A stretch of DNA of 64,000 nt from Thermoanaerobaculia bacterium (GTDB lineage Bacteria > Acidobacteriota > Thermoanaerobaculia > Gp7-AA8), in contig DASPHZ010000002.1 of NCBI GenBank assembly GCA_035629395.1, forward strand, positions 69,423-133,422. The letters run 5' to 3'. Under the pieces are notes generated by a model. It saw nothing but the letters and a program-made list of their open reading frames with translations, ran no database searches and was not told where the DNA came from. Positions 2,010 to 53,625 of this stretch are shown here, piece by piece. A program made the translations under genes and the position numbers. The number at the start of each line of letters is the position of its first letter. Within the stretch, counting starts at the first letter, position 1.

Positions 2010-2200
2010 GGCCGTCGCGAGGGCGTGTCGTTGCAGTCGCATTGCGCGCAGGAAAGACTGATCCGCCTCCGTGGACTTCAAATTGCTGAGATGAGTCTGA
2101 ATTCTCGCGCATTGCGTGCGCGTTGAACAGGCTGCAGCCGCTTCTGGCCTCGGTGTACCTGTGCTAAAACCACCCGACCAAAGGAGCAAGGAACCACACC

Positions 2201-3337
2201 ATGACCGTCACCACCCCCCAGGCCCCCACCCTCCGTGAAGTCGCCGAGTCCGGCGGGAATCCGCTCCGGCTGAAGCGTGTGCATCATGTCGAGTTCTGGG
2301 TGGGGAACGCGAAGCAGGCGGCGTTTTACTACCGGAAGGCGTTCGGGTTTTCGCAGGTGGCGTATTCGGGGCTGGAGACGGGGAATCGGGAGTTTGCCTC
2401 GTACGTGCTCGGGCAGGGGAAGGTGCGGTTCGTCCTCTCGACGCCGTTCGATCCGAACCATCCGGCGAGCGAGCACATCCGGAAGCATGGGGATGGCGTT
2501 CGCGACATCGCGCTGCTGGTCGAGGACGCCGATTACGCGTACGCGGAAGCGGTGAAGCGGGGCGCGACGGGAATCGTCGAGCCGCATGATGTTGCGGGAG
2601 ACCACGGCACGATCCGCCGCGCGGCCATCCAGACCTACGGCGACACCATCCACTCCTTCATCAGCTACGCGAACTACGACGGCGCGTTCCTGCCGGGCTA
2701 CGTCGCCGCGCCCATCGAAGGGGAGCCCGTCGGCATCGCCGCGGTCGATCACATGGTCGGCAACGTCGAGCTCGGAAAGATGAACGAGTGGTGCGAGTTC
2801 TACAGCAAGGTGATGGGCTTCTCGCGCTACATCACCTTCGACGACAAGGACATCAACACCGAGTACTCGGCCCTCATGTCGATCGTCATGAGCGACGACA
2901 ACCGGGTCGTGAAGTTCCCGATCAACGAGCCGGCCGCGGGCAAGAGGAAATCGCAGATCCAGGAGTATCTGGAGGCGTACTACGGCCCCGGCGTGCAGCA
3001 CGTGGCGCTCCTCTGCGGCGACGTCATCAGCACGGTGACGAATCTCAAGAACAACGGCGTCGAGTTCCTCTCCGTGCCGGACAGCTACTACGCCGAGCTC
3101 CCGTCGCGCGTCGGCACGATCGACGAGCCGATGGAAGCGCTGCAGAAGCTCGGCATCCTCGTCGACCGCGACGAAGAGGGCTACCTCCTCCAGATCTTCA
3201 CCAAACCCGTGCAGGACCGCCCCACCGTCTTCTTCGAGATCCTCCAGCGCAAGGGCGCCCGCGGATTCGGAAAAGGGAACTTCAAGGCGCTGTTCGAGTC
3301 GATCGAGAGGGAGCAGGCGAGGAGGGGGAACCTGTAG
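2201..3337 (+). CDS. hppD: 4-hydroxyphenylpyruvate dioxygenase
   Basis: 378 aa. Tandem VOC domains. Conserved [16 protein letters not shown] and C-terminal FFEIIQRKG...[15 protein letters not shown] motifs. AAGGAG ribosome-binding site upstream. Confidence 0.92.
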
Positions 3338-3447
3338 CAGCGTTGCTGGCTGCTCGTTGGTGGTTGCTCGTGACGTGTCGCCCCGGCGATGGACTCCCGA
3401 GCACCAGCAACCAGCAACCAGCAAGCAGCAACCAGCAACCAGCCACA
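3338..3447. repeat. Inverted array of phased heptamer repeats (unit CAGCAAC / GTTGCTG), family B copy 1; exactly fills the hppD stop to hmgA start gap
   Basis: Left arm gttgctg-gctgctc-gttggtg-gttgctc. Unique core gacgtgtcgccccggcgatggactcc. Right arm cagcaac x5-6 running directly into the hmgA ATG. Confidence 0.8.
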
Positions 3448-4700
3448 TGTACCAATCCGGCTTCAACAACGAATTCGCCACCGAGGCCATCGCGGGCGTG
3501 CTTCCGGAGCGGGGCAACTCGCCGCAACGCGTGAAGTTCGGGTTGTACGCGGAGCAGTTCTCCGGCTCGCCGTTCACGGTGCCGCGTCCGATGCAGAAGC
3601 GCGCGTGGTTGTATCGGATCCGGCCGAGCGTGCTGCATGAGCCGTTCACGGCCGCGGACGCACGCCATCTGCGCGGGGCATTCGACGAAGTGCCGGTGCC
3701 GCCGAATCAACTGCGCTGGGATCCGCTGCCGATTCCCAGCGAGCCCACGGACTTCATCGAAGGCCTGACCACGATTGCCGGCAACGCCGGAGTGGGCATC
3801 CACCTCTACGCGTGCAATCGCCCGATGGAAGGGCGCTTTTTCTACGATGCCGACGGCGAGCTGCTGATCGTCCCCGAACAGGGCGCACTGAAGATCCTCA
3901 CGGAGCTCGGCATCCTCGACGTCAAACCGGGCGAGATCGCCGTGATCCCGCGCGGCACGAAGTTCCGCGTCGAAAACGAAAAAGCCCGCGGCTACATCTG
4001 CGAGAACTACGGCGCGAACTTCCGTCTCCCCGACCTCGGGCCGATCGGCTCGAACGGTCTCGCCAATCCGCGCGACTTTCTGACTCCCGCCGCCGCGTAC
4101 GAAGACGTCGAAGGCGACTTCGAGCTGCTCGCGAAATTCGACGGGCATCTCTGGTCCGCACGCATCGACCATTCGCCGCTCGACGTCGTGGCGTGGCACG
4201 GCAACTACGCGCCGTACAAATACGACCTGGCCAAGTTCAACGTCATCAACACGGTCTCGTTCGACCATCCCGATCCGTCGATCTTCACCGTCCTCACCTC
4301 GCCATCCGACACGCCCGGCACCGCGAACTGCGACTTCGTCATCTTCCCGCCGCGCTGGATGGTCGCCGAAGACACCTTCAGGCCACCTTATTTTCATCGC
4401 AATATCATGAATGAATATATGGGACTGATTTATGGTGTCTACGACGCGAAGGCGGAAGGCTTCGCGCCGGGCGGCGGGAGCCTGCACAACTGCATGTCCG
4501 GCCACGGTCCCGACGCCGCCACGTTCGACGCCGCGAGCAACGCGAAGCTCGAGCCGAAGTTCATCGGCGACACGCTCGCCTTCATGTTCGAGACGCGCCA
4601 CCTCATCCGTCCCACCCGCTTCGCCCTCGAGTCGCCGCTCCTGCAGCGCGACTACTGGCGCTGCTGGCAGGGCCTCCGCAAAAACTTCGAGCCTGCATGA
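3447..4700 (+). CDS. hmgA: homogentisate 1,2-dioxygenase
   Basis: N-terminal [14 protein letters not shown]...[22 protein letters not shown] is the typical HGD start. ~417 aa cupin protein. The listed ORF start at 3357 is a spurious extension through the repeat. Confidence 0.9.
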
Positions 4701-5431
4701 TCGCGAAGTCGCTGCGCGCGCTGCTCGAGGGGCTCGTCGACTACGCGGGCCTCTTTCCGCCCGCGGCGCTCTCGATGCAGGACGCCGTCCGCAACTACGC
4801 CCGCTACCGCGAAGGCGAGTACTCCTGGATGCTCGGGAAGTTCGTCGTCCCGCGGGAGCGCGCGGACGAGGTGCCGGGTGAGTATCCGACGAGCATCCTC
4901 GGCATCGACGAAGTGAAGGCGGCGAGCGAAGCGGAGCTGAGCGCATTCGCCGAAGGGACGTTCGTCGAGATCGCGAATCTCGACCTGCTGGACGCCATCG
5001 AGAGAAACCACCTCCGCGCGAAGATCCGCACCGGCGGCATCACCGCGGACGCGTTCCCCCCCATCGAAAACATCGCCGCCTTCCTCCGCGCGTGCAAGGA
5101 GAAAGGCATCGCCTTCAAGGCCACGGCGGGCCTCCATCATCCGCTGCGCTGCGTCAAGCCGCTCACGTACGACGCGGACGCGCCGACCGGCACGATGCAC
5201 GGGTTCCTCAACGTCTTCATGGCCGCGGCGATCGTCGATCGCGCCGAAGAAGTCCTGCGCGAAGACGATCCGCGTGCGTTCGCATTCGACGACGAAGTCG
5301 CGTCGTGGCGCGAAGTCCAGGTCAGCGTGAAATCGATCGCCGAGATGCGTGAGACTTTCGCGATTTCCTTCGGCAGTTGTTCGTTCGAGGAACCCATCAG
5401 CGACTTGCGCGCGCTCGGCCTTCTCCCCTGA
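4697..5431 (+). CDS. conserved hypothetical protein (244 aa) embedded in the tyrosine-catabolic cluster; function unknown
   Basis: ATGA stop/start overlap with hmgA, implying translational coupling. High GC3. No domain recognised by eye. Contains [12 protein letters not shown]. Confidence 0.6.
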
Positions 5432-5522
5432 CTCCGACTCGTAACAAATTCTGACGAGCTTGTGACGAACTCCCCACGCCGTGCGCCGTAGGATCTCTGC
5501 AGTTCAACAGAGAGGATCAGCA

Positions 5523-8197
<2,675 letters not shown>

Positions 8198-8494: not shown

Positions 8495-8498
8495 CGCC

Positions 8499-8591
8499 GT
8501 CATCCTGAGCGAAGCGAAGGATCTCGAACTTCGTCGCATGCGCGTTCTGCCTAGCCTGAGACCCTTCGCCCTCTGCGGGGCTCAGGGTGAC
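8499..8591. repeat. ~90-bp palindromic REP/MITE-like element, copy 1 (termini GTCATCCTGAGC...GCTCAGGGTGAC, inner GCGAAGGATCTC...GAGACCCTTCGC)
   Basis: Nested inverted repeats can form a long imperfect hairpin. A second copy lies at 9781-9867. Translates as ...SS*AKRRIS / ILRSAQDDG in spurious ORFs. Confidence 0.8.
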
Positions 8592-8608
8592 GGATAGAAT
8601 CGGCCTGC

Positions 8609-9790
8609 ATGACCGACTTTCCGATCGAAAACCTTCCCTTCGGCGTTTTCCGCGCGGCTGACGGCAACGCGCATGGATGCACGGCGTTCGAGGACCGCAT
8701 CCTCGACCTGCATGCATGCGCGCGCGCGGGCCTCATCGACGAGCCGGCGCTGCTCGCGCCGCTGCTCAACGAGTTGATGGCGAAGGGACGCGCCGCGTCG
8801 CGGGCCGTGCGTGCTCGCGTGCGCGAGCTCATCGAATCCGGCGCCGCGGACGCGCACTTTGTCCCAATGCAGGGAGCGGAGATGCTCCTGCCGATGCGCA
8901 TCGGCGACTACACCGATTTCTACGCGAGCATCCATCACGCGACGAACGTCGGCTCGATGTTCCGTCCCGACAATCCGCTGCTGCCGAATTACAAGTGGTT
9001 GCCGATCGGCTATCACGGGCGCGCGTCGTCGATCGTCGTCAGCGGCACGCCCGTGCGCCGTCCCGCGGGACAGACGAAGGACGATGCGAGTGCCTCGCCG
9101 AGCTTCGGTCCCTCCAAGAGGCTCGATTACGAAATGGAAATGGGCATCGTCATCGGCGCGGGCAATGCCCTCGGCGAACCGATTGCGGTCGGCGACGCGC
9201 TGGGGCACGTGTTCGGATTCTGTCTCGTCAACGACTGGTCCGCCCGCGACGTGCAGACGTGGGAGTACCAGCCGCTCGGGCCGTTCCTGGCGAAGAATTT
9301 CGCCACGTCGATCTCGCCGTGGATCGTGACGATGGACGCGCTGGAGCCGTTCCGCACGAAGGCATTCGTGCGTGCGGAAGGAGATCCGCCGCCGCTTCCT
9401 TACTTACAGGACGACGTCGGCTTCGACGTCAACGTGGAAGTGTGGCTGCGCACCGCGAAGATGACCGAGCCCGTGCGTCTCAGCCGCGGCAACTTCCGCG
9501 ACATGTACTGGACAGTCGCGCAGCTCGTGGCGCATCACACGTCGAACGGCTGCAACCTCGTGCCCGGCGACCTGCTCGCGAGCGGCACGATCTCGGGTGA
9601 AGCGAAGGACGCGCGCGGCTCGCTGCTCGAGCGGGCGTGGCGCGGCACCGAGCCGGTCGAATTGCCGGGCGGGGAAACGCGCAAGTTTCTCGAAGACGGT
9701 GACGAAGTGGTGTTGCGCGCGTACTGCGAGCGCGACGGCCTGCGCATCGGCTTCGGCGAATGCCGCGGCGTCGTGCTGCCGTCATCCTGA
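8609..9790 (+). CDS. fahA: fumarylacetoacetate hydrolase
   Basis: 393 aa. N-terminal FPIENLPFGVF and a FAH-fold C-terminal domain (GYHGRASS, DYEMEMG, VNDWSARD). Confidence 0.9.
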   Translation: MTDFPIENLPFGVFRAADGNAHGCTAFEDRILDLHACARAGLIDEPALLAPLLNELMAKGRAASRAVRARVRELIESGAADAHFVPMQGAEMLLPMRIGDYTDFYASIHHATNVGSMFRPDNPLLPNYKWLPIGYHGRASSIVVSGTPVRRPAGQTKDDASASPSFGPSKRLDYEMEMGIVIGAGNALGEPIAVGDALGHVFGFCLVNDWSARDVQTWEYQPLGPFLAKNFATSISPWIVTMDALEPFRTKAFVRAEGDPPPLPYLQDDVGFDVNVEVWLRTAKMTEPVRLSRGNFRDMYWTVAQLVAHHTSNGCNLVPGDLLASGTISGEAKDARGSLLERAWRGTEPVELPGGETRKFLEDGDEVVLRAYCERDGLRIGFGECRGVVLPSS

Positions 9791-9867
9791 GCGGAGCGAA
9801 GGATCTCAAAATGCGTAGGACGCGCGTGCTGCGTAGTCTGAGACCCTTCTTCGCGGCTTAGGGTGAC
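9781..9867. repeat. ~90-bp palindromic REP/MITE-like element, copy 2; supplies the fahA stop codon and sits between convergent genes
   Basis: Begins GTCATCCTGAGCGGAGCGAAGGATCTC and ends GCTTAGGGTGAC. The fahA C-terminal residues ...LPSS and its TGA lie inside the element. Confidence 0.8.
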
Positions 9868-9872
9868 GCGGC

Positions 9873-10118
9873 TCAATTCGCGATCGAGTTCGGGCCGCTG
9901 CTGCCGCGATGCTTGCGCGCGAATCCGCGCGCGACCGCGGTCTGCACCGCATCGCGCAATTCCGCGGCGAGTGAGCCGGCCCAGACGACTTCGCGGCCGT
10001 CGGTGAACCGGATCTCTGCCTGCAGGGTCTCGTGAAACGTGATCTGCGCAACGCGTGCGGTCGGGTCGGGAACGATCGGCATGGTGCAGTCATGGTAACT
10101 GAACGTGACGTGCGTCAT
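9873..10118 (-). CDS. small hypothetical protein (~81 aa)
   Basis: GC3 ~80% over the ORF. Begins MTHVTFSYHDC. No strong ribosome-binding site. The 5' part of the listed ORF overlaps the HYR gene start and is probably spurious. Confidence 0.35.
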   Translation of the reverse strand: MTHVTFSYHDCTMPIVPDPTARVAQITFHETLQAEIRFTDGREVVWAGSLAAELRDAVQTAVARGFARKHRGSSGPNSIAN

Positions 10119-14257: not shown

Positions 14258-14365
14258 GGAGGAGCTATAGAGCTGTAGAGCGTTAGAGCCGTAGAGGGGT
14301 GCTCCCCTTCCCCTTTACCGCTCTACAGCTTTACCGCTCTACCGCTCTACCGCTCAACAGCTCCC
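14258..14365. repeat. Inverted array of phased octamer repeats (unit GAGCTGTA / TACAGCTC and variant TACCGCTC), family A copy 1, in the purL/oxidoreductase divergent region
   Basis: Reads gagctata-gagctgta-gagcgtta-gagccgta-gagg | gtgctcccc | ...taccgctc-tacagctt-taccgctc x3-aacagctc. Confidence 0.8.
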
Positions 14366-23311: not shown

Positions 23312-24963
<1,652 letters not shown>

Positions 24964-25003
24964 GAGCTGTAGAGCTGTAGAGCTTTAAAGCTTTAGAGCT
25001 TCA
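24964..25003. repeat. Five phased octamers agctgtag-agctgtag-agctttaa-agctttag-agcttcag, family A copy 2, around the palindrome GCTTTAAAGC
   Basis: Directly abuts the nadE TTG start in the divergent region upstream of the 25125 gene. Confidence 0.75.
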
Positions 25004-27752: not shown

Positions 27753-27843
27753 TTCCGTGGAGTCCGCGCATGACGGGACGTCGTCTCGGTGCGGCGGAGG
27801 CGACGGCGCGAAACCGTCGTTGCGTCACGGCGAGACGTCGTAA

Positions 27844-27885
27844 CGACAGTGGACGTGCGCGCGCGGTTGCGCACGTCCACTGTCG
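27844..27885. terminator. bidirectional hairpin terminator between convergent genes
   Basis: Perfect 17-bp stem CGACAGTGGACGTGCGC / GCGCACGTCCACTGTCG with an 8-nt loop, followed by a U-rich tail on the + strand. Confidence 0.6.
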
Positions 27886-27890
27886 TGTTC

Positions 27891-29825: not shown

Positions 29826-31094
29826 GTGAAGCGTCCCCTTCTATTCATCGTCGCAGCCGTATTGTGTCCATTGCGTTCCTGGACGCAGGAAGCGCCGCTC
29901 ACGATCGAGCGCGCCGTCGAGCTGGCGATGACGAGGAATGAGCGCGCCGCGATTGCCGATACGGCAGTGGAGGCAGCCGAGGCGCGGGTGCGGGCGGCGC
30001 GGACCCTGTTTTTTCCTCGGGTCGACGTGGATGGCGGCTACGCGACCGATTGGGGCAACGGCACCGAGCGCACGCTGTCGGCCGCGGCCACGGTGACGCA
30101 GCCGGTGTTCAACGCGCGCGCGTTTCCGCTCTATCGACAGCAACGGTATCTGCGGGAGGCCGCGGGCTTCGCGGCACAGGAAACGCGGCGCCTCGTCGGC
30201 TACGACGCGGCCGCGGCATTTCTGGCCACGCTGGGATTCGAGCAGGTGCTGCTCGCTGCCGAACGCCGCCGCGAATTCGCGCAGACGAACCTCGCCGATG
30301 TGCGCGCGCGATTCGAGGCGGGCCTCGTCAGCTCGAATGACGTGACGCGTGCGGAGCTCGAGCTCGCGACGGCGGTGCGCGGCGTCGCGCAGGCTTCGGG
30401 TGACGTGCAGGCCGCGCGTGTCGATCTCGAGAATCTGTTGAACGCGGAAGTCGACGGACCGCTCGCACCGCCGACGGCCTTGCTGGCCGCTGCGGCCGAG
30501 GCGCCCGCGACGACCGGGAACGGGATCGCGGAGGCGCAGGCTCGCCGCAATGACATCGCCGCCGCGCGTGCGGAAGTCGAGGCGCAGCGCGAGTTCGCGG
30601 ACGAGCCGAACGCGCGCTTCTTCCCGTCCTTACAGGTGCAGGCGCAGACGCGCAACGTCAATGACGGTCCGGTGACCTCGCGCAACAACGACGGTTTCGT
30701 CGGACTCACGTTCGCGTGGCCGGTATTCGACGCCGGCATCCGCGGCGCGGAGCGCGCGCAACGCACCGCGGAGCTGCGCGGACGCGAGCTCGAATTGCAG
30801 GCGTCCTTGCGGCAGGTCGAGCGCGAGCTGCGCAGCGCGGGCGTGCAGCTCACGACGGAGCAAGCCGCGCTGCGCGAAGCGACGGCCGCGCTCGAAGCCG
30901 CCCGCCGCAACCTGCACGAAACGACCGTGCTCTATCGCGAAGGCCTCGCCAGCGCCCTGGAGCTCGCGGACGCGACCCAGCGCCTGTTCGAAGCCGAAGT
31001 CGCGCAGGTGACGGCGCGGTACCGGATGGCGGTGGCGTATCTGTCGTTGGAAGAGGCGCGCGGGGAAGCGCCGGTGGGGGAGATAAGAAGATGA
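29826..31094 (+). CDS. TolC-family outer membrane efflux protein
   Basis: Signal peptide and tandem OEP repeats. 422 aa. Confidence 0.85.
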   Translation: MKRPLLFIVAAVLCPLRSWTQEAPLTIERAVELAMTRNERAAIADTAVEAAEARVRAARTLFFPRVDVDGGYATDWGNGTERTLSAAATVTQPVFNARAFPLYRQQRYLREAAGFAAQETRRLVGYDAAAAFLATLGFEQVLLAAERRREFAQTNLADVRARFEAGLVSSNDVTRAELELATAVRGVAQASGDVQAARVDLENLLNAEVDGPLAPPTALLAAAAEAPATTGNGIAEAQARRNDIAAARAEVEAQREFADEPNARFFPSLQVQAQTRNVNDGPVTSRNNDGFVGLTFAWPVFDAGIRGAERAQRTAELRGRELELQASLRQVERELRSAGVQLTTEQAALREATAALEAARRNLHETTVLYREGLASALELADATQRLFEAEVAQVTARYRMAVAYLSLEEARGEAPVGEIRR

Positions 31095-31185
31095 ATGCAG
31101 AATGCAGAATGCAGAATGCAGAATTGCGAAAAGGGATGCGGCTGAAGGTTCTCCTTTCTTCTTTCTGCATTCTGCATTCTGCGTT
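31095..31185. repeat. Hairpin built from phased heptamers (GAATGCA x4 ... TGCATTC x3), family C; bridges the OMP stop and the MFP start
   Basis: ~20-bp perfect stem gcagaatgcagaatgcagaat / attctgcattctgcattctgc. The second arm encodes part of the MFP lipoprotein signal peptide (SSFCILHSAF). Confidence 0.8.
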
Positions 31186-32251
31186 CGTCTTTTCCTGCTC
31201 CAGGGGTGATGCCGCGGCCAACGCCTCCGCTGGCGGGTCGGGGGCAAGCCGCCGCGGGGCGATGGAGTTTCCGGTCGAGGTGAAGGCGGTTGAGTCGCGT
31301 CGCGTCGAGTATTCCGTCAATGCGGTCGGGTCGCTCGACGCGTTCGAGCGTGTGGCTGTGACGGCGCGTGTGGCGGGTGCGATCGAGAAGGTGAATTTTC
31401 GCGAGGGGCAGCTCGTGTCCACCGGGTCGACGCTCGCGGAGATCGAGCCGGAGCGGTATCGCATCGCGGTCCGCGCCGCGGAGGCGGCGGTGACGAAGGC
31501 GCTGGCGTCGAAGGCGGAAGCGGAGGCGGGGTATGCGCGGCGGCAGGCGGCGAGTGAGAAGAATCCGGGGCTGATCCGCGGCGAAGAGATCGAGACGTGG
31601 CGGACGAAGGTGCAGACCGCGGCCGCGGAAGTCGCGGCGGCGCAGGCCGCGCTCGCGCAGGCGCGGCTCAATCTGCGCGACGCGTTCGTGCGCGCGCCGG
31701 TCGCCGGCACCATCCAGACGCGCACCGTCGAGACGGGACAGTACGTGCCGGTCGGCACCGTGCTCGCCACGCTCATGCGCCGCGACCCGCTCCTGCTGCG
31801 CTTCCAGGTGCCGGAGCAGGAAGCGATGCCGCTGCGTCCGGGCATCGTCGCGCGGTTCAACGTGGCCGAGGATCAGGCGCAGCATCGGGCGACGATCACG
31901 CATGTAGCCGCGGCGGCGAATCGCTCCTCGCGCATGGTCGACATCACCGCGAACGTCATCGACGCGAACCGCCCCGAGCTTCGTCCCGGCGCCTTCGCGC
32001 GCGTGACGGTGCCGATCGGTTCCGAGCGCGACGCGCCCGTCATCCCGCAGACCGCCATCCGGCCAAGCGAAAAAGGCTTCCTCGCCTTCACCGTCAATAA
32101 CGGCGTCGCCACACAACGCGTCCTCACCCTCGGCATGCGCACCGCCGACGGCCAGGTCGAAGTGAAGGAAGGCCTCCAACCCGGCGAGCTGCTGGTGATC
32201 CGCGGCGCGGAAGCGTTGCGGGATGGGGCGAAGGTGAAGGTGACGAGGTGA
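31136..32251 (+). CDS. efflux RND periplasmic adaptor (HlyD/MFP family), lipoprotein
   Basis: Lipobox MRLKVLLSSFCILHSAFVFSC. Coiled-coil plus beta-barrel MFP pattern. The ORF-track start at 30716 is an antisense-region extension. Confidence 0.8.
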   Translation: MRLKVLLSSFCILHSAFVFSCSRGDAAANASAGGSGASRRGAMEFPVEVKAVESRRVEYSVNAVGSLDAFERVAVTARVAGAIEKVNFREGQLVSTGSTLAEIEPERYRIAVRAAEAAVTKALASKAEAEAGYARRQAASEKNPGLIRGEEIETWRTKVQTAAAEVAAAQAALAQARLNLRDAFVRAPVAGTIQTRTVETGQYVPVGTVLATLMRRDPLLLRFQVPEQEAMPLRPGIVARFNVAEDQAQHRATITHVAAAANRSSRMVDITANVIDANRPELRPGAFARVTVPIGSERDAPVIPQTAIRPSEKGFLAFTVNNGVATQRVLTLGMRTADGQVEVKEGLQPGELLVIRGAEALRDGAKVKVTR

Positions 32252-32287
32252 CGACGGGACGACGGGAGAGATGTTGCGCAAGCGGGG

Positions 32288-32504
32288 GAGCTGTTGAGCT
32301 GTTGAGCCGTTGAGCAAGGCGAGGCGCCGAGAGCTGTAAAGCTGTAAAGCTGTAAAGCGGTAGAGGGGTCAAGCCCCTTTATAGCTCTACAGCTCTACGG
32401 CTCTACAGCTCAATGCCTCAACAGCTCAACAGCTCAACGGCTCAACAGCTCAACAGCTCTATAGCTCTATAGCTCTACAGCTCAATGCCTCAACAGCTCA
32501 ACAG
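32288..32504. repeat. ~215-bp inverted array of ~27 perfectly phased octamers (GTTGAGCT/GTAAAGCT ... AGCTCTAC/AGCTCAAC), family A copy 3; fills the MFP-to-RND gap
   Basis: Dyad centre ggggtcaagcccc. Right arm is 15 consecutive RGCTCWAY octamers, including an internal 34-bp duplication. Confidence 0.85.
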
Positions 32505-32519
32505 GCGAGAACCAATGCC

Positions 32520-35500
32520 ATGAAAATCACCCAGGTCTGCATCGAAAAACCGGTCTTCGCGTGGATGATCATGCTTGCTACCGTCGTCTTCGGCGGGGTG
32601 GCGGCGACGCGGATCGGGATCTCGCAGTTTCCGGACGTCGACTTTCCCACCATCAACGTCAGTGCGGTGTGGGAAGGGGCGGCGCCGGAGGTCATCGAGC
32701 ACGACGTCGTCGAGCCGATCGAAGAGGCGGTCATGCAGGTCGAGGGGGTGCGCAGCGTCACCTCGTCCTCGCGCCAGGGCTCGGGCAGCGTCACGATCGA
32801 GCTCGACCTCGCGCGTAACGTCGACCTCGCGCTGCAGGACGTGCAGACGCGCGTCGCGCAGGTGCAGCGCCGTCTGCCGCGTGACCTCGAGCCGCCCGTG
32901 GTCTCGAAGACCAATCCCGAAGACCAGCCGATCATGTGGATCGGCCTCTCCGGTCCGTACTCGCCGCAGATGCTCGCCGATTACGCGCGCTATCGCGTCA
33001 AGGAAAAACTGCAGACCGTGCCGGGCGTCGGCGAGATCCAGGTCGGCTCGGTCGAGCGCAACATCCGCATCTGGCTCGACTCCGACAAGCTCGACGAGCG
33101 CCGCGTCACCGTGAGCGAAGTCCTCGGCGCGATCGGCCAGCAGCACGTCGAGCTTCCCGCGGGCCGTCTCGAAACCTCCGGCCGCGAAGTGAACGTCCGC
33201 GTCCTCGGCGAGGCGTTCAATCTCGAAGAGTTCCGCCGCCTCGTCGTGAAGAACGTCGAAGGCGCGCCGGTGTATCTCTCCGACGTCGCCATCGTCGAAG
33301 ACGGCTTCGAAGACATCCGCCGCATCTCGCGCGTCAACGGCGAACCGGCGCAGGGCATGGGCGTGCGCAAGCAGCGCGGCTCGAACGCGGTGGCCGTCGC
33401 ACGCGGCGTGAAGGAATCGATCGCCGAGATCCAGAAGACGCTGCCGCCGGGCATGCAGCTCGGCATCAACTTCGACTCGACGCAGTTCATCGAAGAGTCG
33501 GTGCACGAGATCCAGTTCGAGCTGATGCTCTCGGTCATCCTCACCGCCGTCATCTGCTGGCTTTTCCTCGGCTCGCTCGGCGCGACGCTCAACGTCATCC
33601 TCGCGATCCCGATGTCGCTCCTCGGCACGGTCGCGTGCATCTACTTCTTCGGTTTCACGCTCAATACGTTCACGCTCCTCGGACTCGCGCTCGCCGTCGG
33701 CATCGTCGTCGACGACGCGATCATGGTCCTCGAGAACATCTTCCGCCACGCCGAGATGGGCAAAGACCGAAGACGCGCGGCGAGTGAAGGCACGGACGAG
33801 ATCAGCTTCGCGGCACTGGCGGCGACGCTCGCGGTGTGCGCGATCTTCCTCCCCGTCGTCTTCATGAAGGGGATCATCGGCAAGTTCTTTCTGCAGTTCG
33901 GCGTGACGCTGTGCGTGGCCGTGCTGCTGTCGTACGTCGAAGCGATCACGCTCGCGCCCGCGCGCTCCGCGCAGATGCTCAACGCCGGAGCGGAACGCCA
34001 GTCGAAGCTCGGCCACTTCGTCGACAAAGCATTCGACAAGCTTGCCGCCGCGTACGGCCGCGTGCTGGCAATGGGCCTGAAGCGGCCGGTCGCGGTGCTG
34101 ATCGCCGCGTTGCTCGTGTTCGCGGCGTCGCTGTACGTGTTCAAGAAACTGCCGAGCGAGTTCGTGCCGTCGCAGGATCAGAGCCGTCTCATGATCCGCC
34201 TGCAGACCGCGGTCGGCTCCGACATCACCGAAACGGACCGCGTGTTCCAGCGCGCCGAGCAGTACCTCCTGCAGCAGAAGGAAGTCGTGCGCGTGTTCGG
34301 CAGCGTCGGCGGATTCGGCGGTGGTGGCGGCAGCGTGAACAGCGGCATCCTCTTCGTCACGATGATCCCGCCGGACGAGCGCGTGTCGCAGCAGGAGTTC
34401 GCGACCCGCATCCGCAAGGAGCTCAACTCCTATCCCGGCGTGCGCGCGGTCGTGCAGGACCTCTCGCAGCAGGGCTTCACCGCGCAGCGCGGGTTCCCGA
34501 TCGAGTTTTCCGTGCGCGGTCCGGAGTGGGAGAAGCTGACCGAGCTTTCGAACGACATGCGCGAGAAGCTCGCCGCGAGCGGCTTCGCGACGGACGTCGA
34601 CACGGATTACCAGGTCGGCATGCCCGAGCTGCGCATCGTTCCCGATCGCGACCGCGCCGCGGACCTCGGCGTCCCCGTCGAGCAGGTCGCGACGTCGATC
34701 AACGCGCTCGTCGGCGGCGTGCGCACCGGCAAGTACTCCTCGGGCGGACGCCGCATCGACGTCCGTACGCGCCTGCTGGCGAAGCAGCGCACGCGCCCCG
34801 AGGACTTGTCCCGGCTGCGGGTGCGGACGGCTTCGGGGGATCTCATTCCGATGTCCGCACTGGTGAAAGAAGAAGAGCGCCCCGCGTTGCAGTCGGTGAC
34901 GCGCCGCGACCGCGAGCGCGCGATCTCGATCTACGGCAACGTCGCGCCCGGCAAATCGCAGAACGAAGCGCTGGCCTTCGTCGAACAGATCAGCAAAGAC
35001 CTGCCGCCCGGCTACCGCGCGGTGCTCGGCGGCTCGTCGGTCGCGTTCCGTGAATCGATGGGCCAGCTCATGTTCGCGCTCGTCCTCGGCGTGATCGTCG
35101 CGTACATGGTCCTCGCGTCGCAGTTCAATTCGTTCCTGCATCCCGTGACCGTGCTCTCGATCCTGCCGCTCTCGATCGCGGGCGCGGCGTTCGCGCTGCT
35201 CGTGACGGGGAAGACGCTGAACATCTTCTCGATGATCGGCCTGCTGCTGCTGATGGGCATCGCCAAGAAAAACTCGATCATCCTCGTCGACTACGCGGTG
35301 CAGAAGCAGGGGGAAGGCGCGACCGCGCACGAAGCGATGCTGAAAGCGGGGCCGGTGCGCTTGCGTCCGATTCTCATGACTTCGCTCGCGACGATGATGG
35401 CCGCCATTCCGCCGGCACTCGCGCTCGGCCCCGGCGCGGAAACGCGCGGACCGATGGCGGTGGCGATCATCGGCGGTCTCGTGATCTCGACCGCGCTCTC

Positions 35501-35615
35501 GCTGCTCGTCGTGCCGGCGTTCTTCGTCGTCGCCGACCGCATCAAGACCAGGCTCGGCGAAGTGTTCGCGCGCCGCCACGAAGACGAGCCGGAAGAGGCG
35601 ACGGCCCACGGATGA
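32520..35615 (+). CDS. efflux RND transporter permease (AcrB/CzcA family)
   Basis: 1031 aa. 12-TM RND architecture and conserved motifs. Confidence 0.95.
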   Translation: MKITQVCIEKPVFAWMIMLATVVFGGVAATRIGISQFPDVDFPTINVSAVWEGAAPEVIEHDVVEPIEEAVMQVEGVRSVTSSSRQGSGSVTIELDLARNVDLALQDVQTRVAQVQRRLPRDLEPPVVSKTNPEDQPIMWIGLSGPYSPQMLADYARYRVKEKLQTVPGVGEIQVGSVERNIRIWLDSDKLDERRVTVSEVLGAIGQQHVELPAGRLETSGREVNVRVLGEAFNLEEFRRLVVKNVEGAPVYLSDVAIVEDGFEDIRRISRVNGEPAQGMGVRKQRGSNAVAVARGVKESIAEIQKTLPPGMQLGINFDSTQFIEESVHEIQFELMLSVILTAVICWLFLGSLGATLNVILAIPMSLLGTVACIYFFGFTLNTFTLLGLALAVGIVVDDAIMVLENIFRHAEMGKDRRRAASEGTDEISFAALAATLAVCAIFLPVVFMKGIIGKFFLQFGVTLCVAVLLSYVEAITLAPARSAQMLNAGAERQSKLGHFVDKAFDKLAAAYGRVLAMGLKRPVAVLIAALLVFAASLYVFKKLPSEFVPSQDQSRLMIRLQTAVGSDITETDRVFQRAEQYLLQQKEVVRVFGSVGGFGGGGGSVNSGILFVTMIPPDERVSQQEFATRIRKELNSYPGVRAVVQDLSQQGFTAQRGFPIEFSVRGPEWEKLTELSNDMREKLAASGFATDVDTDYQVGMPELRIVPDRDRAADLGVPVEQVATSINALVGGVRTGKYSSGGRRIDVRTRLLAKQRTRPEDLSRLRVRTASGDLIPMSALVKEEERPALQSVTRRDRERAISIYGNVAPGKSQNEALAFVEQISKDLPPGYRAVLGGSSVAFRESMGQLMFALVLGVIVAYMVLASQFNSFLHPVTVLSILPLSIAGAAFALLVTGKTLNIFSMIGLLLLMGIAKKNSIILVDYAVQKQGEGATAHEAMLKAGPVRLRPILMTSLATMMAAIPPALALGPGAETRGPMAVAIIGGLVISTALSLLVVPAFFVVADRIKTRLGEVFARRHEDEPEEATAHG

Positions 35616-42069: not shown

Positions 42070-42284
42070 GAGGGCCCCCTGAGAGAGAGGTAAGGGACCG
42101 AATTTCGGCAGCCGGACCGTCGCTGCGCCGACGCGACGCAGGATTCCTGGCTTTGCGCCACCGTCTCGCGACGGTTTTGCCTTTTCGATTCGGTGGTTCA
42201 GTTGTACGGGACGGGGCAGATTTTAGAGACGGCCGGAAGGAAGTCAACTCAAATTGTCTGTCAGCGCTGGCGTAGCATGCCCGC

Positions 42285-52617: not shown

Positions 52618-53540
52618 CGAAGCGCCACCTGATCCTCACCCTCGCCCTCTCCACGCTCCCGTTCGCGGTCATCGGCTGCGGCGGTGACGAGTCGAAGGCC
52701 GAAACCTCGACCGCGACCGCGACGGCCGCGTCGACGACTGCCGCCGCGCCGGATCTGCCGGCCGACGTGCAGGACATCGCCAACGCCACCGCCGCCGCGA
52801 CGGAGACGTCCGCCACGGCCGCGGCCGAGTCGAACACGTTCTCCGCGACCGGCGAGTTCGTCTCGCCGGTGCGCTCGGAGCTCTCCGCCCGCATCCCCGG
52901 ACGCGTGGCGAAGATGTACGTCGACGAAGGCTCGCGCGTCCGCCGCGGCCAGCCGGTGCTCGAGCTCGAGACGGAGTACTCGCGTCTCAACCTGCAGGCC
53001 GCGAACGCGGAAGTCGCGCGCGCGAAAGCCGCGCTCGACGAAGCGGGACGCGACCTCGAGCGCAAGCGCGGGCTGAGCGCGAAGGATTCGATCCCTCGCG
53101 CGACGCTCGACCGCTCGCAGGCGATGTTCGACCAGGCCAACGCCGCGCATCAGGCCGCGTCCGCGCAGGCTGCGTTGCTGCGCCAGCAGATCGCCGACGC
53201 TACGCTGCGCTCGCCGGTCGACGGCATCGTGGCCGAGAAGCGCGTCGACATCGGTGCACGCCTCGGCGACGGCGGCGTGGCCTTCGTCGTCGTGCAGACC
53301 TCCCCCCTCAAGCTCCGCTTCGCCGTCCCCGAGCGTTACCTCGGCCGCATCACCGCCGGCGACCAGGTCACCGCGCGCGTCGACCCGTACCCGAACGAAG
53401 CCTTCACGGGCGTCGTGAAGACCATGGGCGGCGTGATCGACCCGAAGACGCGAACGATGTTCGCCGAGGCGGAGTTCGCGAACCGCGACGGACGTTTGCG
53501 TCCGGGACTGTTCGCGAGAGTGGAAACGAAGCTCGATTGA
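52614..53540 (+). CDS. efflux RND periplasmic adaptor (MFP), lipoprotein
   Basis: Lipobox ...LPFAVIGC. ATGA overlap with the OMP stop. Thr/Ala-rich linker. Confidence 0.8.
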   Translation: MTKRHLILTLALSTLPFAVIGCGGDESKAETSTATATAASTTAAAPDLPADVQDIANATAAATETSATAAAESNTFSATGEFVSPVRSELSARIPGRVAKMYVDEGSRVRRGQPVLELETEYSRLNLQAANAEVARAKAALDEAGRDLERKRGLSAKDSIPRATLDRSQAMFDQANAAHQAASAQAALLRQQIADATLRSPVDGIVAEKRVDIGARLGDGGVAFVVVQTSPLKLRFAVPERYLGRITAGDQVTARVDPYPNEAFTGVVKTMGGVIDPKTRTMFAEAEFANRDGRLRPGLFARVETKLD

Positions 53541-53625
53541 TGTTGCTGGGGGCTGGTTGCTCGTTGCTTGCGATCCTCGCGAGACCTCACGAGCCACCAG
53601 CAACTAGCAACCAGGAACCTTAGCC
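53541..53625. repeat. Inverted phased-heptamer array (GTTGCTG ... CAGCAAC), family B copy 2; exactly fills the MFP stop to RND start gap
   Basis: Reads gttgctg-ggggctg-gttgctc-gttgctt | gcgatcctcgcgagacctcac | gagccac-cagcaac-tagcaac-cagg. Architecture matches the 3338-3447 element. Confidence 0.8.

What the first reader, a model, noticed from the sequence alone, without database searches (positions are those of the whole stretch)
32288..32504. Large dyad-symmetric array of ~27 perfectly phased octamer repeats between an efflux MFP and its RND pump
The 215-bp spacer between the MFP stop and the RND start is not random. It is a head-to-head array of 8-nt units (GTTGAGCT x3, GTAAAGCT x3 | core ggggtcaagcccc | AGCTCTAC, AGCTCAAC, AGCTCTAT x15) with exact 8-nt register and an internal 34-bp duplication. 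The same unit family (GAGCTGTA/TACAGCTC) recurs at 14258-14365 and 24964-25003, so this is a genome-wide repeat family rather than a local accident. An 8-nt period rules out coding. The perfect phasing suggests a repeated protein-binding array or replication-slippage-prone structured RNA, either of which could control pump versus adaptor stoichiometry.
Basis: seen in the sequence. Interest (0 to 1): 0.75.

Follow-up and report, generated by a model that had tools for sequence, protein, structure and literature searches.

The report
Hairpin made of tandem octamer repeats
The spacer between two efflux-pump genes holds a real, very stable hairpin built from head-to-head runs of 8-base repeats. 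It belongs to a fast-changing class of paired inverted short-repeat arrays scattered through this soil bacterium and its relatives, and it is not a conserved regulatory site.

Summary
Window 32288-32504 is a dyad of 8-nt tandem units, about 25 in all and about 22 in one unbroken register. It folds into a nested hairpin (RNA -139 kcal/mol, z = -12). The same unit family recurs at 14262-14363 and 24963-25001.

The organism is a Thermoanaerobaculia (Acidobacteriota) MAG. Its relatives carry such paired inverted arrays about once per 9 kb. Units are mostly 7 or 8 nt, arms most often have 4 units, and many unit families exist.

At the orthologous adaptor-pump (MFP-RND) junction, 10 of 15 close lineages have a dyad array, but the units differ (GAGCTGTT, GAGAGAT, AGTCCTG, GTTGTCG, GAACGCA, a 9-mer and others). 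Three lineages have no spacer, and two of those show ATGA/GTGA gene overlap. More distant relatives have no array. A 99.9%-identical assembly differs here by one 72-nt (9-unit) indel.

There is no bias toward the sense RNA strand, no terminator and no matching Rfam family. The array is best read as a hypermutable hairpin-forming pair of simple-sequence repeat arrays that grew by slippage, with a second element nested in its loop. Any effect on pump versus adaptor expression is probably a by-product. A sequence-specific protein-binding array is not supported.

The closest published case is the paired GGGAATC heptamer arrays of Xanthomonas. I class this as a new variant of a known, poorly understood kind.

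The parts
29928..31094 (+). Outer-membrane efflux protein gene (OEP). Its stop codon overlaps the MFP start (ATGA).
   Evidence: Pfam OEP, E = 3.9e-47. Gene calls on L001.
31091..32251 (+). Membrane-fusion (adaptor, MFP) gene, 386 aa.
   Evidence: Pfam HlyD_3 and HlyD_D23. Stop codon located.
32238..32267 (+). 8-nt periodic duplications of the MFP 3' end and stop region (GGTGACGA GGTGACGA CGGGACGA CGGGAGAG). The sister genome L114 lacks them.
   Evidence: TRF rows 32238-32262 and 32242-32267. Comparison with L114.
32288..32315 (+). Outer left arm, GAGCTGTT x3.5.
   Evidence: TRF. It is 100% complementary to 32432-32459 (pair I6). It is orthologous to the left arm in L114 at 9895-9929.
32316..32330 (+). 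Remnant of the outer loop (AAGGCGAGGCGCCGA). It resembles the L114 loop GGGGGACGGCGCGGAG.
   Evidence: Read.
32331..32363 (+). Inner left arm, (A/G)AGCTGTA x4.
   Evidence: TRF 32332-32362. Inverted pair I2.
32364..32379 (.). Core and loop of the inner element (AGGGGTCAAGCCCCTT), in register as two 8-nt units.
   Evidence: The core GTAGAGGGGT..CCCCTTTA is shared with the copy at 14262-14363.
32380..32411 (+). Inner right arm, TAYRGCTC x4.
   Evidence: It pairs with 32331-32368 in the predicted fold.
32412..32459 (+). Outer right arm (AATGCCTC, AACAGCTC, AACGGCTC units). The stretch 32432-32459 is the perfect complement of the outer left arm.
   Evidence: pairs I3-I6..
32433..32504 (+). 72-nt (9-unit) segment present in the window but absent from the 99.9%-identical ENA assembly L001. 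It holds the second copy of the TATAGCTC..AATGCCTCAACAGCTCAACAG block.
   Evidence: blastn and direct comparison. Direct repeat family D1.
32520..35615 (+). RND pump gene, 1031 aa. The hairpin foot ends 15 nt before its ATG.
14262..14363 (+). Second full copy of the GAGCTGTA octamer dyad. It lies in the divergent region between purL-like (-) and oxidoreductase (+) genes.
   Evidence: It is 82% identical over its whole length to 32329-32411. Flanking genes.
24963..25001 (+). Solo arm of the same family (GAGCTGTA/GAGCTTTA x4.9). It abuts the start of the NAD synthase gene (-).
31093..31186 (+). Same class, different family: a heptamer dyad (GAATGCA x4.6 / TGCATTC x5.4) lying in frame inside the MFP signal-peptide coding region.
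3341..3443 (+). Same class: a GTTGCTG / CAGCAAC heptamer dyad ending 3 nt before the hmgA ATG (3447).
53540..53620 (+). Same class: a GTTGCTG-family heptamer dyad ending 5 nt before the ATG (53626) of a second RND pump.

Best explanation
The feature is a composite member of a lineage-wide class of paired inverted arrays of simple-sequence repeats (SSRs) with long units. Two short tandem arrays of 7-9-nt units face each other across a short loop, so either DNA strand, or the RNA, can fold into a long hairpin.

**How it arose (inferred).**
- Such arrays grow, shrink and homogenise within each arm by slipped-strand mispairing in steps of one unit.
- Families with the same unit and the same core are dispersed to several loci by a mechanism not yet known.
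- At this junction, an older GAGCTGTT array is shared with the sister genome L114.
- A GAGCTGTA-type element later landed in its loop.
- A 72-nt duplication then arose in its right arm.

**What it does to the operon (inferred).** The array replaced the ancestral tight or overlapping MFP-RND junction (ATGA/GTGA in relatives). The operon transcript therefore carries a hairpin of about -130 kcal/mol that ends 15 nt before the RND start codon. This must abolish translational coupling. It probably acts as a barrier to 3' exonucleases or as a processing site. I judge this effect to be a by-product rather than the reason the array exists.

**Shown:** anatomy, fold, family membership, turnover among relatives, and length polymorphism.
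**Inferred:** slippage as the growth mechanism, dispersal, and the consequences for expression.
For: - **Anatomy and fold.** Searches give the anatomy. The fold has RNA minimum free energy -139.2 kcal/mol (z = -12.2) and DNA -73.9 kcal/mol (z = -10.4).
- **A class, not a one-off.** There are 40 inverted same-unit array pairs in 343 kb of close-clade DNA, against 3 for the direct-orientation control. There are 12 in 867 kb of more distant loci. Periods are 7 nt (29 cases), 8 nt (15) and 9 nt (1). Arms most often have 4 units and a median length of 31 nt.
- **Turnover at the orthologous MFP-RND junction.** Units are GAGCTRTT (L114), GAGAGAT (L115), AGTCCTG (L117), GTCGGTT (L119), a 9-mer (L120), CAGTTCT (L122), GTTGTCG (L124), GTTGCGA (L151) and GAACGCA (L125). 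L123 and L126 have only plain or MITE-type hairpins. L118, L121 and L130 have no spacer. All orthologues at 74% identity or less have no dyad array; L128 keeps a weak one-arm run.
- **Fast gain or loss.** The sister pair L125 and L130 differ by presence or absence of a 101-nt array.
- **Hypermutability.** The only indel in 23 kb between the window and a 99.9%-identical assembly is 72 nt, exactly 9 units, inside the array. The flank next to the 8-nt array shows 8-nt periodic duplications. In L119 the flank next to a 7-nt array shows 7-nt duplications.
- **Each arm homogenises on its own.** The left arm is AAGCTGTA x3 while the right arm is GAGCTGTA-type.
- **Dispersed families.** The window copies at 14262 and 32329 are 82% identical over the whole element, core included. 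Five copies in MAG SMAG_U3429 share the core TTGAGCGAGAAG..CTTCTCGCTCAA. Identical units recur in 14 array pairs against 0.47 expected by chance.
- **No sign of selection on the sense RNA.** Of 21 arrays between co-directional genes, the sense strand folds better in 9 and the antisense strand in 12.
- **No functional theme and no fixed genomic context**.
- **Published parallel.** Xanthomonas GGGAATC arrays occur as 70-75 inverted pairs per genome, most often have 4 units, lie close to the upstream stop codon, vary in length between species and have no known function (PMC4692102).
Against: - **Hot spots.** Some junctions are occupied far more often than the average of about 13% of intergenic regions would predict. 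MFP-RND is occupied in 10 of 15 lineages, OEP-MFP in 7 of 15, and DUF5916-DUF1573 in 3 of 4. This could reflect selection for a hairpin there rather than neutral persistence.
- **Correlated arms.** Left and right copy numbers correlate (rho = 0.52, p = 2e-4), and arms cluster around 4 units. This suggests some constraint on hairpin geometry.
- **No mobilising enzyme and no target-site duplication were found**, so the dispersal step is unexplained.
- **The 72-nt difference could be an assembly collapse** rather than true variation.
- **No expression data exist.**
Confidence: 0.5

Rival explanations
1. A structure-selected intercistronic RNA hairpin. Selection would maintain a long stem-loop between the MFP and RND genes, whatever its sequence, to set the adaptor:pump ratio. 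It could do this through protection from 3' exonucleases, RNase III processing, or damping of RND translation. Unit copy number would act as an evolvable dial.
For: - The junction is occupied by some dyad array in 10 of 15 close lineages despite different units, and by other hairpins in two more.
- The two arms correlate in length.
- The hairpin ends 15 nt, and in L117 only 2 nt, before the RND start codon.
- No promoter or terminator is predicted in the spacer, so it is probably co-transcribed.
- Established precedent, from my own knowledge: repetitive extragenic palindromes in the malE-malF spacer stabilise the upstream mRNA.
Against: - Three close lineages and all distant ones do without any spacer; L121 and L130 have ATGA/GTGA overlap.
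- The sisters L125 and L130 differ by presence or absence.
- There is no sense-strand advantage through G-U pairs.
- The same class occurs in promoter regions, between convergent genes and inside ORFs.
- The arms of the inner element have drifted to 82% complementarity.
Confidence: 0.22
2. A genuine non-autonomous transposable element, resembling a MITE, a REPIN or a eukaryotic foldback element. The tandem units in its arms would be reiterated binding sites for a transposase encoded elsewhere in the genome. The array at this junction would then be two nested insertions.
For: - Copies at unlinked loci share both unit and core.
- Typical size is uniform at about 97 nt, with 4+4 units and a loop of about 32 nt.
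- Relatives show presence/absence polymorphisms with fairly clean edges.
- Insertions are nested in hairpin loops: the window against L114, and L125 7377-7448 against L130.
- Unit families recur across genomes at non-orthologous sites.
Against: - No target-site duplication and no conserved termini were found.
- At least nine unit families coexist in one clade, which a single transposase would not explain.
- OEP-MFP arrays form a chain of single-base unit changes (GCAAAAT, GCAGAAT, GCAGAAG, GCAGAGG). That pattern fits in-place concerted evolution better than repeated insertion.
- No transposase gene lies beside any copy in the gene calls seen.
Confidence: 0.15
3. An array of binding sites for a sequence-specific DNA- or RNA-binding protein that recognises the octamer.
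For: The units are regularly phased, and the family is present at three loci in the window.
Against: - Orthologous sites carry unrelated units of 7, 8 or 9 nt.
- Several unrelated unit families coexist in the same genome.
- An 8-nt period is out of phase with the DNA helix.
- The genes flanking the three octamer loci share no function.
Confidence: 0.03
4. An assembly artefact of short-read metagenomics.
For: Two assemblies of nearly the same genome disagree by 72 nt inside the array. Several short contigs of this population end before reaching the junction.
Against: The core architecture is identical in both assemblies. Equivalent arrays appear in independent JGI, ENA, NCBI and Logan assemblies of many relatives, and in isolate genomes of other phyla.
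Confidence: 0.02

Closest known systems
Paired inverted heptamer SSR arrays of Xanthomonas (GGGAATC) and related GGGGAYT arrays of Nostoc (Rehm et al. 2015, PLoS One, PMC4692102)
   Same: - Both are tandem arrays of 7-nt-class units, often as two arrays in convergent orientation that can form a stem-loop.
- Both are intergenic and lie closer to the upstream ORF's stop codon.
- Both most often have four units per array.
- Both vary in length and sequence between close relatives at the same junction.
- Neither shows a functional theme among flanking genes, and function is unknown for both.
   Different: - Here the unit is an octamer without G-tracts, so the G-quadruplex explanation offered for Xanthomonas cannot apply.
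- Many unrelated unit families coexist in one genome.
- The unit is replaced wholesale between orthologous sites.
- Elements are nested.
- Some arrays lie in frame inside signal-peptide coding sequence.
- The phylum is different (Acidobacteriota).
REP / BIME / REPIN elements (repetitive extragenic palindromes mobilised by RAYT transposases; Di Nocera et al. 2013, PMC3733652)
   Same: Both are abundant small intergenic palindromes. Both often sit inside operons, are dispersed in families, and can stabilise upstream mRNA. The inner element's units contain GTAG.
   Different: REPs are single 20-40-bp stem-loops with one terminal GTAG or CGTC tag, and their stems are not built of tandem units. Here the arms are 28-120 nt of 8-nt repeats, and GTAG, where present, recurs in every unit. 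No RAYT gene has been linked.
Eukaryotic Foldback (FB) transposons (from my own knowledge; no prokaryotic counterpart found)
   Same: Both have long inverted arms made of tandem sub-repeats. Arm length varies between copies by repeat number. The whole element snaps back into a hairpin.
   Different: FB elements are kilobase-scale and eukaryotic. They are associated with a transposase and make target-site duplications. None of these features is shown here.
TAACTGA heptamer direct repeats of Beggiatoaceae and cyanobacteria (MacGregor 2015, PMC4679880)
   Same: Both are short-unit (7-nt) intergenic tandem repeats that often end a few nucleotides before a start codon. Both show indels in 7-nt steps between strains.
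   Different: The TAACTGA repeats are direct only, with one inverted case among 170 sets. They use a single conserved unit and are oriented toward the start codon. [quoted passage not shown]
Rickettsia palindromic elements and similar MITEs that insert in frame into genes (from my own knowledge)
   Same: The heptamer members of this class at the OEP-MFP junction are tolerated inside an ORF and add 15-33 residues to the protein.
   Different: RPEs are fixed-sequence elements, not tandem-unit dyads. The octamer array under study is strictly non-coding.

Membership tests
Paired inverted long-unit SSR arrays (Xanthomonas GGGAATC type, PMC4692102) | Tandem array of at least 2 units of a 6-9-nt motif | tested here: met
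   Period 8, with 3.5, 3.9 and 15.2 copies.
Paired inverted long-unit SSR arrays (Xanthomonas GGGAATC type, PMC4692102) | Two arrays close together in convergent orientation on opposite strands, able to form a stem-loop | tested here: met
   Inverted pairs I2 and I6. Fold z = -12.2.
Paired inverted long-unit SSR arrays (Xanthomonas GGGAATC type, PMC4692102) | Intergenic, nearer to the upstream ORF's stop codon | tested here: inconclusive
   In the class generally the left arm starts 0-13 nt after the upstream stop codon. This array fills the spacer: it starts 36 nt after the MFP stop and ends 15 nt before the RND start.
Paired inverted long-unit SSR arrays (Xanthomonas GGGAATC type, PMC4692102) | G-tract in each unit, giving G-quadruplex potential | tested here: not met
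   The units GAGCTGTT, GAGCTGTA and their complement have no GGG run.
Paired inverted long-unit SSR arrays (Xanthomonas GGGAATC type, PMC4692102) | Length and sequence variation between close relatives at the same junction | tested here: met
REP / REPIN | Single imperfect palindrome of 20-40 bp | tested here: not met
   The element is 217 nt, with arms of tandem octamers.
REP / REPIN | Conserved GTAG or CGTC tetranucleotide at one end | tested here: inconclusive
   GTAG occurs inside the GAGCTGTA units and at the core (GGTAGAGGGG), but not as a single terminal tag. The outer GAGCTGTT units lack it.
REP / REPIN | Associated RAYT (Y1 HUH transposase) gene in the genome | not tested
   Only 64 kb of this genome is available. 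No such gene appears in the neighbourhood gene calls.
MITE | Terminal inverted repeats flanked by a target-site duplication | tested here: not met
   Inverted arms are present, but comparison of filled and empty sites gave no consistent duplication. The sites were NamZ/S8, L125 against L130, and the nested insert.
MITE | Derivation from a full-length insertion sequence with matching ends | not testable with these tools
   This needs the whole genome.
Intrinsic (Rho-independent) terminator | GC-rich hairpin followed by a U-tract | tested here: not met
   No terminator-like site is predicted in 30900-32700. The sequence after the hairpin is GGCGAGAACCAATGCC.
Phase-variable SSR (contingency locus) | Unit-number change switches expression of the adjacent gene, through frame or promoter spacing | tested here: inconclusive
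   A 9-unit length difference exists between near-identical assemblies. The array is intercistronic, and no expression read-out is available.
Known structured RNA families (Rfam 15) | Match to a curated covariance model at its gathering score | tested here: not met
   Only sub-threshold matches to generic microRNA hairpins were found.

The most novel reading that the evidence does not exclude
Paired inverted arrays of 7-9-nt units may be a widespread, essentially unrecognised class of bacterial genetic element. They are seen here in Acidobacteriota, and they appear in scan loci from Verrucomicrobiota, Gammaproteobacteria, Desulfobacterota, Elusimicrobia and CPR phyla.

Two novel readings remain open:
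- They could be a new kind of foldback-type mobile DNA that targets hairpin loops and gene junctions.
- They could be selected 'rheostat' stem-loops, whose stability, and hence operon stoichiometry or signal-peptide length, is tuned by unit copy number.

Either way, the 'four-unit' preference attributed to G-quadruplexes in Xanthomonas would be a general property of the class.
Probability: 0.18. Interest if true: 0.8.

Novelty: new variant of a known kind. Interest (0 to 1): 0.55.

Why it matters
**A dynamic junction.** A tightly coupled efflux operon has had its gene junctions repeatedly opened by hairpin-forming repeat arrays that change unit sequence between close relatives. This mode of intergenic evolution has been described, to my knowledge, only once: as G-quadruplex repeats in Xanthomonas.

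**The published explanation cannot be general.** The Thermoanaerobaculia arrays share the geometry of the Xanthomonas ones (paired, about 4 units per arm, next to the stop codon) but have no G-tracts. The common denominator is therefore the hairpin or the slippage process.

**Practical consequences:**
- Such arrays break short-read assemblies.
- They mislead gene callers, as shown by spurious or extended N-termini such as MNAECRMQNAE....
- They can create or lengthen signal peptides.

**If functional.** If any of them are selected, they would be simple, evolvable dials for expression within an operon.

Tried and rejected
- **Rfam.** Searches of the window and of the spacer gave only sub-threshold microRNA-like hairpin matches.
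- **Promoter and terminator scan.** Nothing was found in 30900-32700.
- **Genome-collection scan.** I searched AGCTNTWN x3.5. It still delivered the Thermoanaerobaculia MAG SMAG_U3429 and examples from other phyla.
- **G/T-rich 5' arm relative to transcription.** This was not consistent across unit families or gene orientations.
- **Sense-strand RNA advantage through G-U pairs.** Absent: 9 against 12.
- **Target-site duplications at filled versus empty sites.** None was convincing. The xTGA on both sides of the L125 insert is what any viable insertion into an ATGA overlap would require.
- **Units derived from the local flank.** There are suggestive cases: GAAGTAA/GAAGTAG in L119, GAATGAA against GAATGCA at the MFP start, and the 8-nt duplications at 32238-32267. 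These are not provable.
- **More assemblies of the same population.** Exact-protein look-ups gave only contigs that stop short of the junction, or no record.
- **Telomerase-like repeat addition at both ends of a double-strand break.** This would give head-to-head arrays. I found no way to test it and no supporting evidence, so I kept it only as speculation.
- **Literature.** Searches for a prokaryotic foldback-like element, or for a description in Acidobacteria, found nothing. The Xanthomonas paper surfaced.
Full report

Yes. Tandem Repeats Finder (TRF) reports three period-8 arrays between the adaptor (MFP) stop codon at 32249-32251 and the RND start codon at 32520:
- 32288-32315: GAGCTGTT, 3.5 copies.
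- 32332-32362: AGCTGTAA, 3.9 copies.
- 32383-32504: 15.2 copies with no indels.

The left arrays are the reverse complement of the right one. 32331-32368 pairs with 32374-32411 (38 nt, 82% complementary), and 32288-32315 pairs with 32432-32459 (28 nt, 100%).

Reading the sequence, one unbroken 8-nt register runs from 32332 to 32504. That is 21.6 units, with the core AGGGGTCA AGCCCCTT counted as two. The outer left arm is 3 nt out of that register. The total is therefore about 25 units rather than 27 perfectly phased ones. The right arm is a mixture (TATAGCTC x3, TACAGCTC x3, TACGGCTC, AATGCCTC x2, AACAGCTC x5, AACGGCTC), not 'AGCTCTAT x15'.

Runs of at least 3 phased AGCNNTWN units occur nine times in the window and never in 100 shuffles. 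All nine lie at three loci: 14262-14363, 24963-25001 and this one.

The transcript of 32270-32530 folds into one long nested hairpin with minimum free energy -139.2 kcal/mol and z = -12.2. With DNA parameters the values are -73.9 kcal/mol and z = -10.4.

**2. Context**

The RND protein is 100% identical to a protein that NCBI names from a Thermoanaerobaculia bacterium MAG, in the phylum Acidobacteriota.

The gene order is OEP (29928-31094), MFP (31091-32251), the array, RND (32520-35615), then DUF1287. No sigma-70-type promoter and no intrinsic terminator is predicted in 30900-32700. No Rfam family matches.

**3. It is one of a class**

The window also holds heptamer dyads:
- GAATGCA/TGCATTC at 31093-31186.
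- GTTGCTG/CAGCAAC at 3341-3443, ending just before the hmgA start codon.
- The same family at 53540-53620, ending just before the start codon of a second RND pump.

I ran a TRF-based census of 343 kb from this clade. The sample comprised the window, four syntenic contigs, fifteen metagenome loci whose RND is at least 85% identical, and five contigs of MAG SMAG_U3429. It found 40 pairs of same-unit arrays in inverted orientation within 150 nt, against 3 for the direct-orientation control. In 867 kb from relatives at 74% identity or less there were 12, of which about 8 look real.

The class has these properties:
- Periods are 7 nt (29 cases), 8 nt (15) and 9 nt (1).
- Arms most often have 4 units and a median length of 31 nt.
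- The median loop is 32 nt and the median element is 97 nt.
- Left and right copy numbers correlate (rho = 0.52).
- Arrays lie between co-directional genes (21), divergent genes (10) and convergent genes (5).
- The left arm typically starts 0-13 nt after the upstream stop codon.

The genes flanking arrays in the window are hmgA, a purL-like gene, an oxidoreductase, NAD synthase and two efflux operons. They share no function.

**4. The orthologous junction**

Synteny around the pump is conserved in relatives. At the MFP-RND junction the close lineages show:

| Lineage | State of the junction |
|---|---|
| L114 (sister, RND 94% identical) | 4+4 units of GAGCTRTT |
| L115 / L116 / L169 | GAGAGAT heptamers |
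| L117 | AGTCCTG |
| L119 | GTCGGTT |
| L120 | a 9-mer, GGGACGAAT |
| L122 | CAGTTCT |
| L124 / L193 | GTTGTCG, with a decayed right arm |
| L151 | GTTGCGA |
| L125 | GAACGCA |
| L123 | a plain hairpin |
| L126 | a remnant of an unrelated MITE |
| L118 | a 21-nt spacer |
| L121, L130 | overlapping stop and start codons (GTGA / ATGA) |

None of the orthologues at 74% identity or less has a dyad array; L128 (74%) keeps only a weak one-arm CAACCAG run.

On an RND tree, L125 (array) and L130 (overlap) are sisters. L117 (array), L121 (overlap) and L123 (hairpin) cluster together. So architecture and position recur, unit sequence does not, and gain or loss is fast.

Other junctions behave the same way:
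- DUF5916-DUF1573 holds GGAGCTG in L114, GAGGTAT in L115 and GTTGCTG in L117.
- NamZ-S8 is empty in the window but holds a GTTGCTG dyad in L114.
- GH3-PA holds a plain hairpin in the window and L114, and a hairpin plus a TGAGGAT dyad in L115.

**5. Anatomy explained by comparison**

The L114 array matches the outer part of the window array. They share the unit, have a similar loop (GGGGGACGGCGCGGAG against AAGGCGAGGCGCCGAG) and share the right flank GGCGAG.

The inner part (32329-32411; GAGCTGTA units, core GTAGAGGGGT..CCCCTTTA) is absent from L114. It is 82% identical over its whole length to the copy at 14262-14363. The window array is therefore an older GAGCTGTT dyad with a GAGCTGTA-type element nested in its loop.

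A similar nested insert distinguishes L125 7377-7448 from L130.

The ENA assembly of almost the same genome (L001) has 22 mismatches and no other gap in 23 kb. It lacks exactly 72 nt, or 9 units, corresponding to window 32433-32504. This is either real population variation or a repeat collapse. Either way the array is the single unstable spot in the region.

Two further signs point to unit-length slippage. Next to the array, the MFP 3' end shows 8-nt periodic duplications that L114 lacks (32238-32267). In L119 the flank of a 7-nt array shows a 7-nt duplication of the stop-codon region. Within the inner element each arm is homogenised separately (AAGCTGTA x3 on the left, GAGCTGTA-type on the right). 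Slippage within an arm therefore outpaces any correction between arms.

**6. Dispersal**

Five copies in SMAG_U3429 share not only the unit but also the core TTGAGCGAGAAG..CTTCTCGCTCAA. Across 45 arrays, identical units recur in 14 pairs against 0.47 expected. Units within one mismatch recur in 47 pairs against 8.6 expected. Some of these pairs are orthologous, but many are not.

Families therefore spread or are copied. I found no target-site duplication and no linked transposase.

**7. Is RNA structure selected?**

Of 21 dyads between co-directional genes, the sense strand folds better in 9 and the antisense strand in 12. There is thus no G-U signature of selection on the transcript.

Against pure neutrality, three junctions are occupied far more often than average:
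- MFP-RND in 10 of 15 lineages.
- OEP-MFP in 7 of 15.
- DUF5916-DUF1573 in 3 of 4.

At OEP-MFP the units form a chain of single-base steps: GCAAAAT in L115, GCAGAAT in the window and L130, GCAGAAG in L125, and GCAGAGG in L126. This indicates long persistence with concerted evolution in place.

Those OEP-MFP arrays lie in frame inside the MFP ORF. The left arm encodes a polar, charged n-region. The right arm encodes the hydrophobic core just before the lipobox cysteine, for example MNAECRMQNAELRKGMRLKVLLSSFCILHSAFVFSC. The protein is 383-401 aa with an array and 367-368 aa without one.

**8. Most likely mechanism**

I commit to the following, at about 0.5 confidence. The feature is a hypermutable, hairpin-forming pair of long-unit simple-sequence repeat (SSR) arrays. 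It grows and homogenises by slipped-strand mispairing in unit steps. It belongs to families that are somehow copied between loci, and it received a nested second element.

Its consequence for the operon is inferred, not shown. The ancestral translational coupling is lost, and a hairpin of about -130 kcal/mol sits 15 nt upstream of the RND start codon. This could protect the MFP message or damp RND translation.

Rivals:
- A structure-selected, tunable intercistronic hairpin: 0.22.
- A true foldback-type or MITE-like transposon: 0.15.
- A sequence-specific protein-binding array: 0.03.
- An assembly artefact: 0.02.

**9. Comparison with what is known**

The closest published description is Rehm et al. 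2015 (PMC4692102). It covers GGGAATC heptamer SSRs in Xanthomonas. There are 70-75 inverted pairs per genome, arrays most often have four units, they lie about 28 nt from the upstream ORF, they vary between species at the same junction, and their function is unknown. The authors interpreted them as G-quadruplex formers.

The present arrays share that geometry, including the four-unit mode, but have no G-tracts. So G-quadruplexes cannot be the general explanation.

Other comparisons:
- REP/REPIN elements (PMC3733652) resemble them in location, but are single short palindromes.
- MITEs lack the tandem-unit arms and have target-site duplications.
- The TAACTGA heptamer repeats (PMC4679880) are direct, not paired.
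- Eukaryotic Foldback transposons have the same arm architecture on a larger scale (from my own knowledge). No prokaryotic counterpart turned up.

In the truncated genome scan, clear dyads of 7-8-nt units also appear in several other groups:
- Endozoicomonadaceae, with five in 8 kb using the unit AGCTGTAA.
- Peribacteria.
- Opitutae.
- Desulfobacteraceae.
- Parcubacteria.
- Saccharibacteria.
- Elusimicrobia.

The class seems widespread and under-described.

**10. Verdict**

- **Observation:** confirmed, with minor corrections.
partly supported. The array is a non-coding, slippage-prone, structured member of a genome-wide family. It is not a sequence-specific site or a dedicated stoichiometry controller.
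- **Novelty:** a new variant of a known but poorly understood kind.
- **Interest:** moderate (0.55). It would be higher if the class proves to be mobile or functionally tuned.

Noticed in passing
window 31093-31186 (also L130 8851-8954, L115 8727-8824, L125 231-333, L126 4123-4242, L151 931-1022, L124 8773-8871): Heptamer or octamer dyad arrays lie in frame inside the MFP gene. The left arm encodes a polar n-region and the right arm encodes the hydrophobic core of the lipoprotein signal peptide. The protein is lengthened by 15-33 residues relative to relatives that lack the array.
   Followed up: yes
window 3341-3443 and 53540-53620: GTTGCTG/CAGCAAC heptamer dyads end 3-5 nt before the start codons of hmgA and of a second RND pump. 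The same unit family occurs at other junctions in L114 and L117.
   Followed up: partly
window 42104-42191 (-): A c-di-GMP-I riboswitch (Rfam RF01051, 59.7 bits) lies just upstream of a 131-aa minus-strand ORF, which is followed by a gene for a PA-domain protein.
   Followed up: no
window 8497-8593 and 9780-9869; L114 1042-1252, 13090-13220, 20534-20635; L125 8530-8647; L126 MFP-RND junction: A separate MITE-like hairpin element of about 95 nt (CGTCATCCTGAGCGAAGCGAAGGATCTC ... GCTCAGGGTGACGG) also fills gene junctions in this clade. In L114 it sits inside the NamZ ORF.
   Followed up: partly
window 32433-32504 versus L001 (around 9985): The only length difference in 23 kb between the window and a 99.9%-identical ENA assembly is a 72-nt (9-unit) indel inside the array.
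   Followed up: yes
window 32238-32267: The MFP 3' end and stop-codon region show 8-nt periodic duplications next to the 8-nt array. The sister genome L114 lacks them.
   Followed up: partly
window 27843-27886: A perfect 18-bp hairpin sits right after the DUF5916 gene. Three relatives carry heptamer dyad arrays at this junction. The window also has an extra 265-aa minus-strand gene here.
   Followed up: no
L070 (Endozoicomonadaceae) 510-6182; L016, L005, L012, L078, L110, L043: Dyad arrays of 7-8-nt units occur in unrelated phyla. The Endozoicomonadaceae locus has five in 8 kb with the unit AGCTGTAA, and some are followed by T-runs like terminators.
   Followed up: partly
L031 1900-2330 (Verrucomicrobia MAG): A 145-nt higher-order repeat is made of three different short tandem units (ATTTGAG, CTTTTCAG, CCCTCTGG). 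It is not arranged as a dyad.
   Followed up: no
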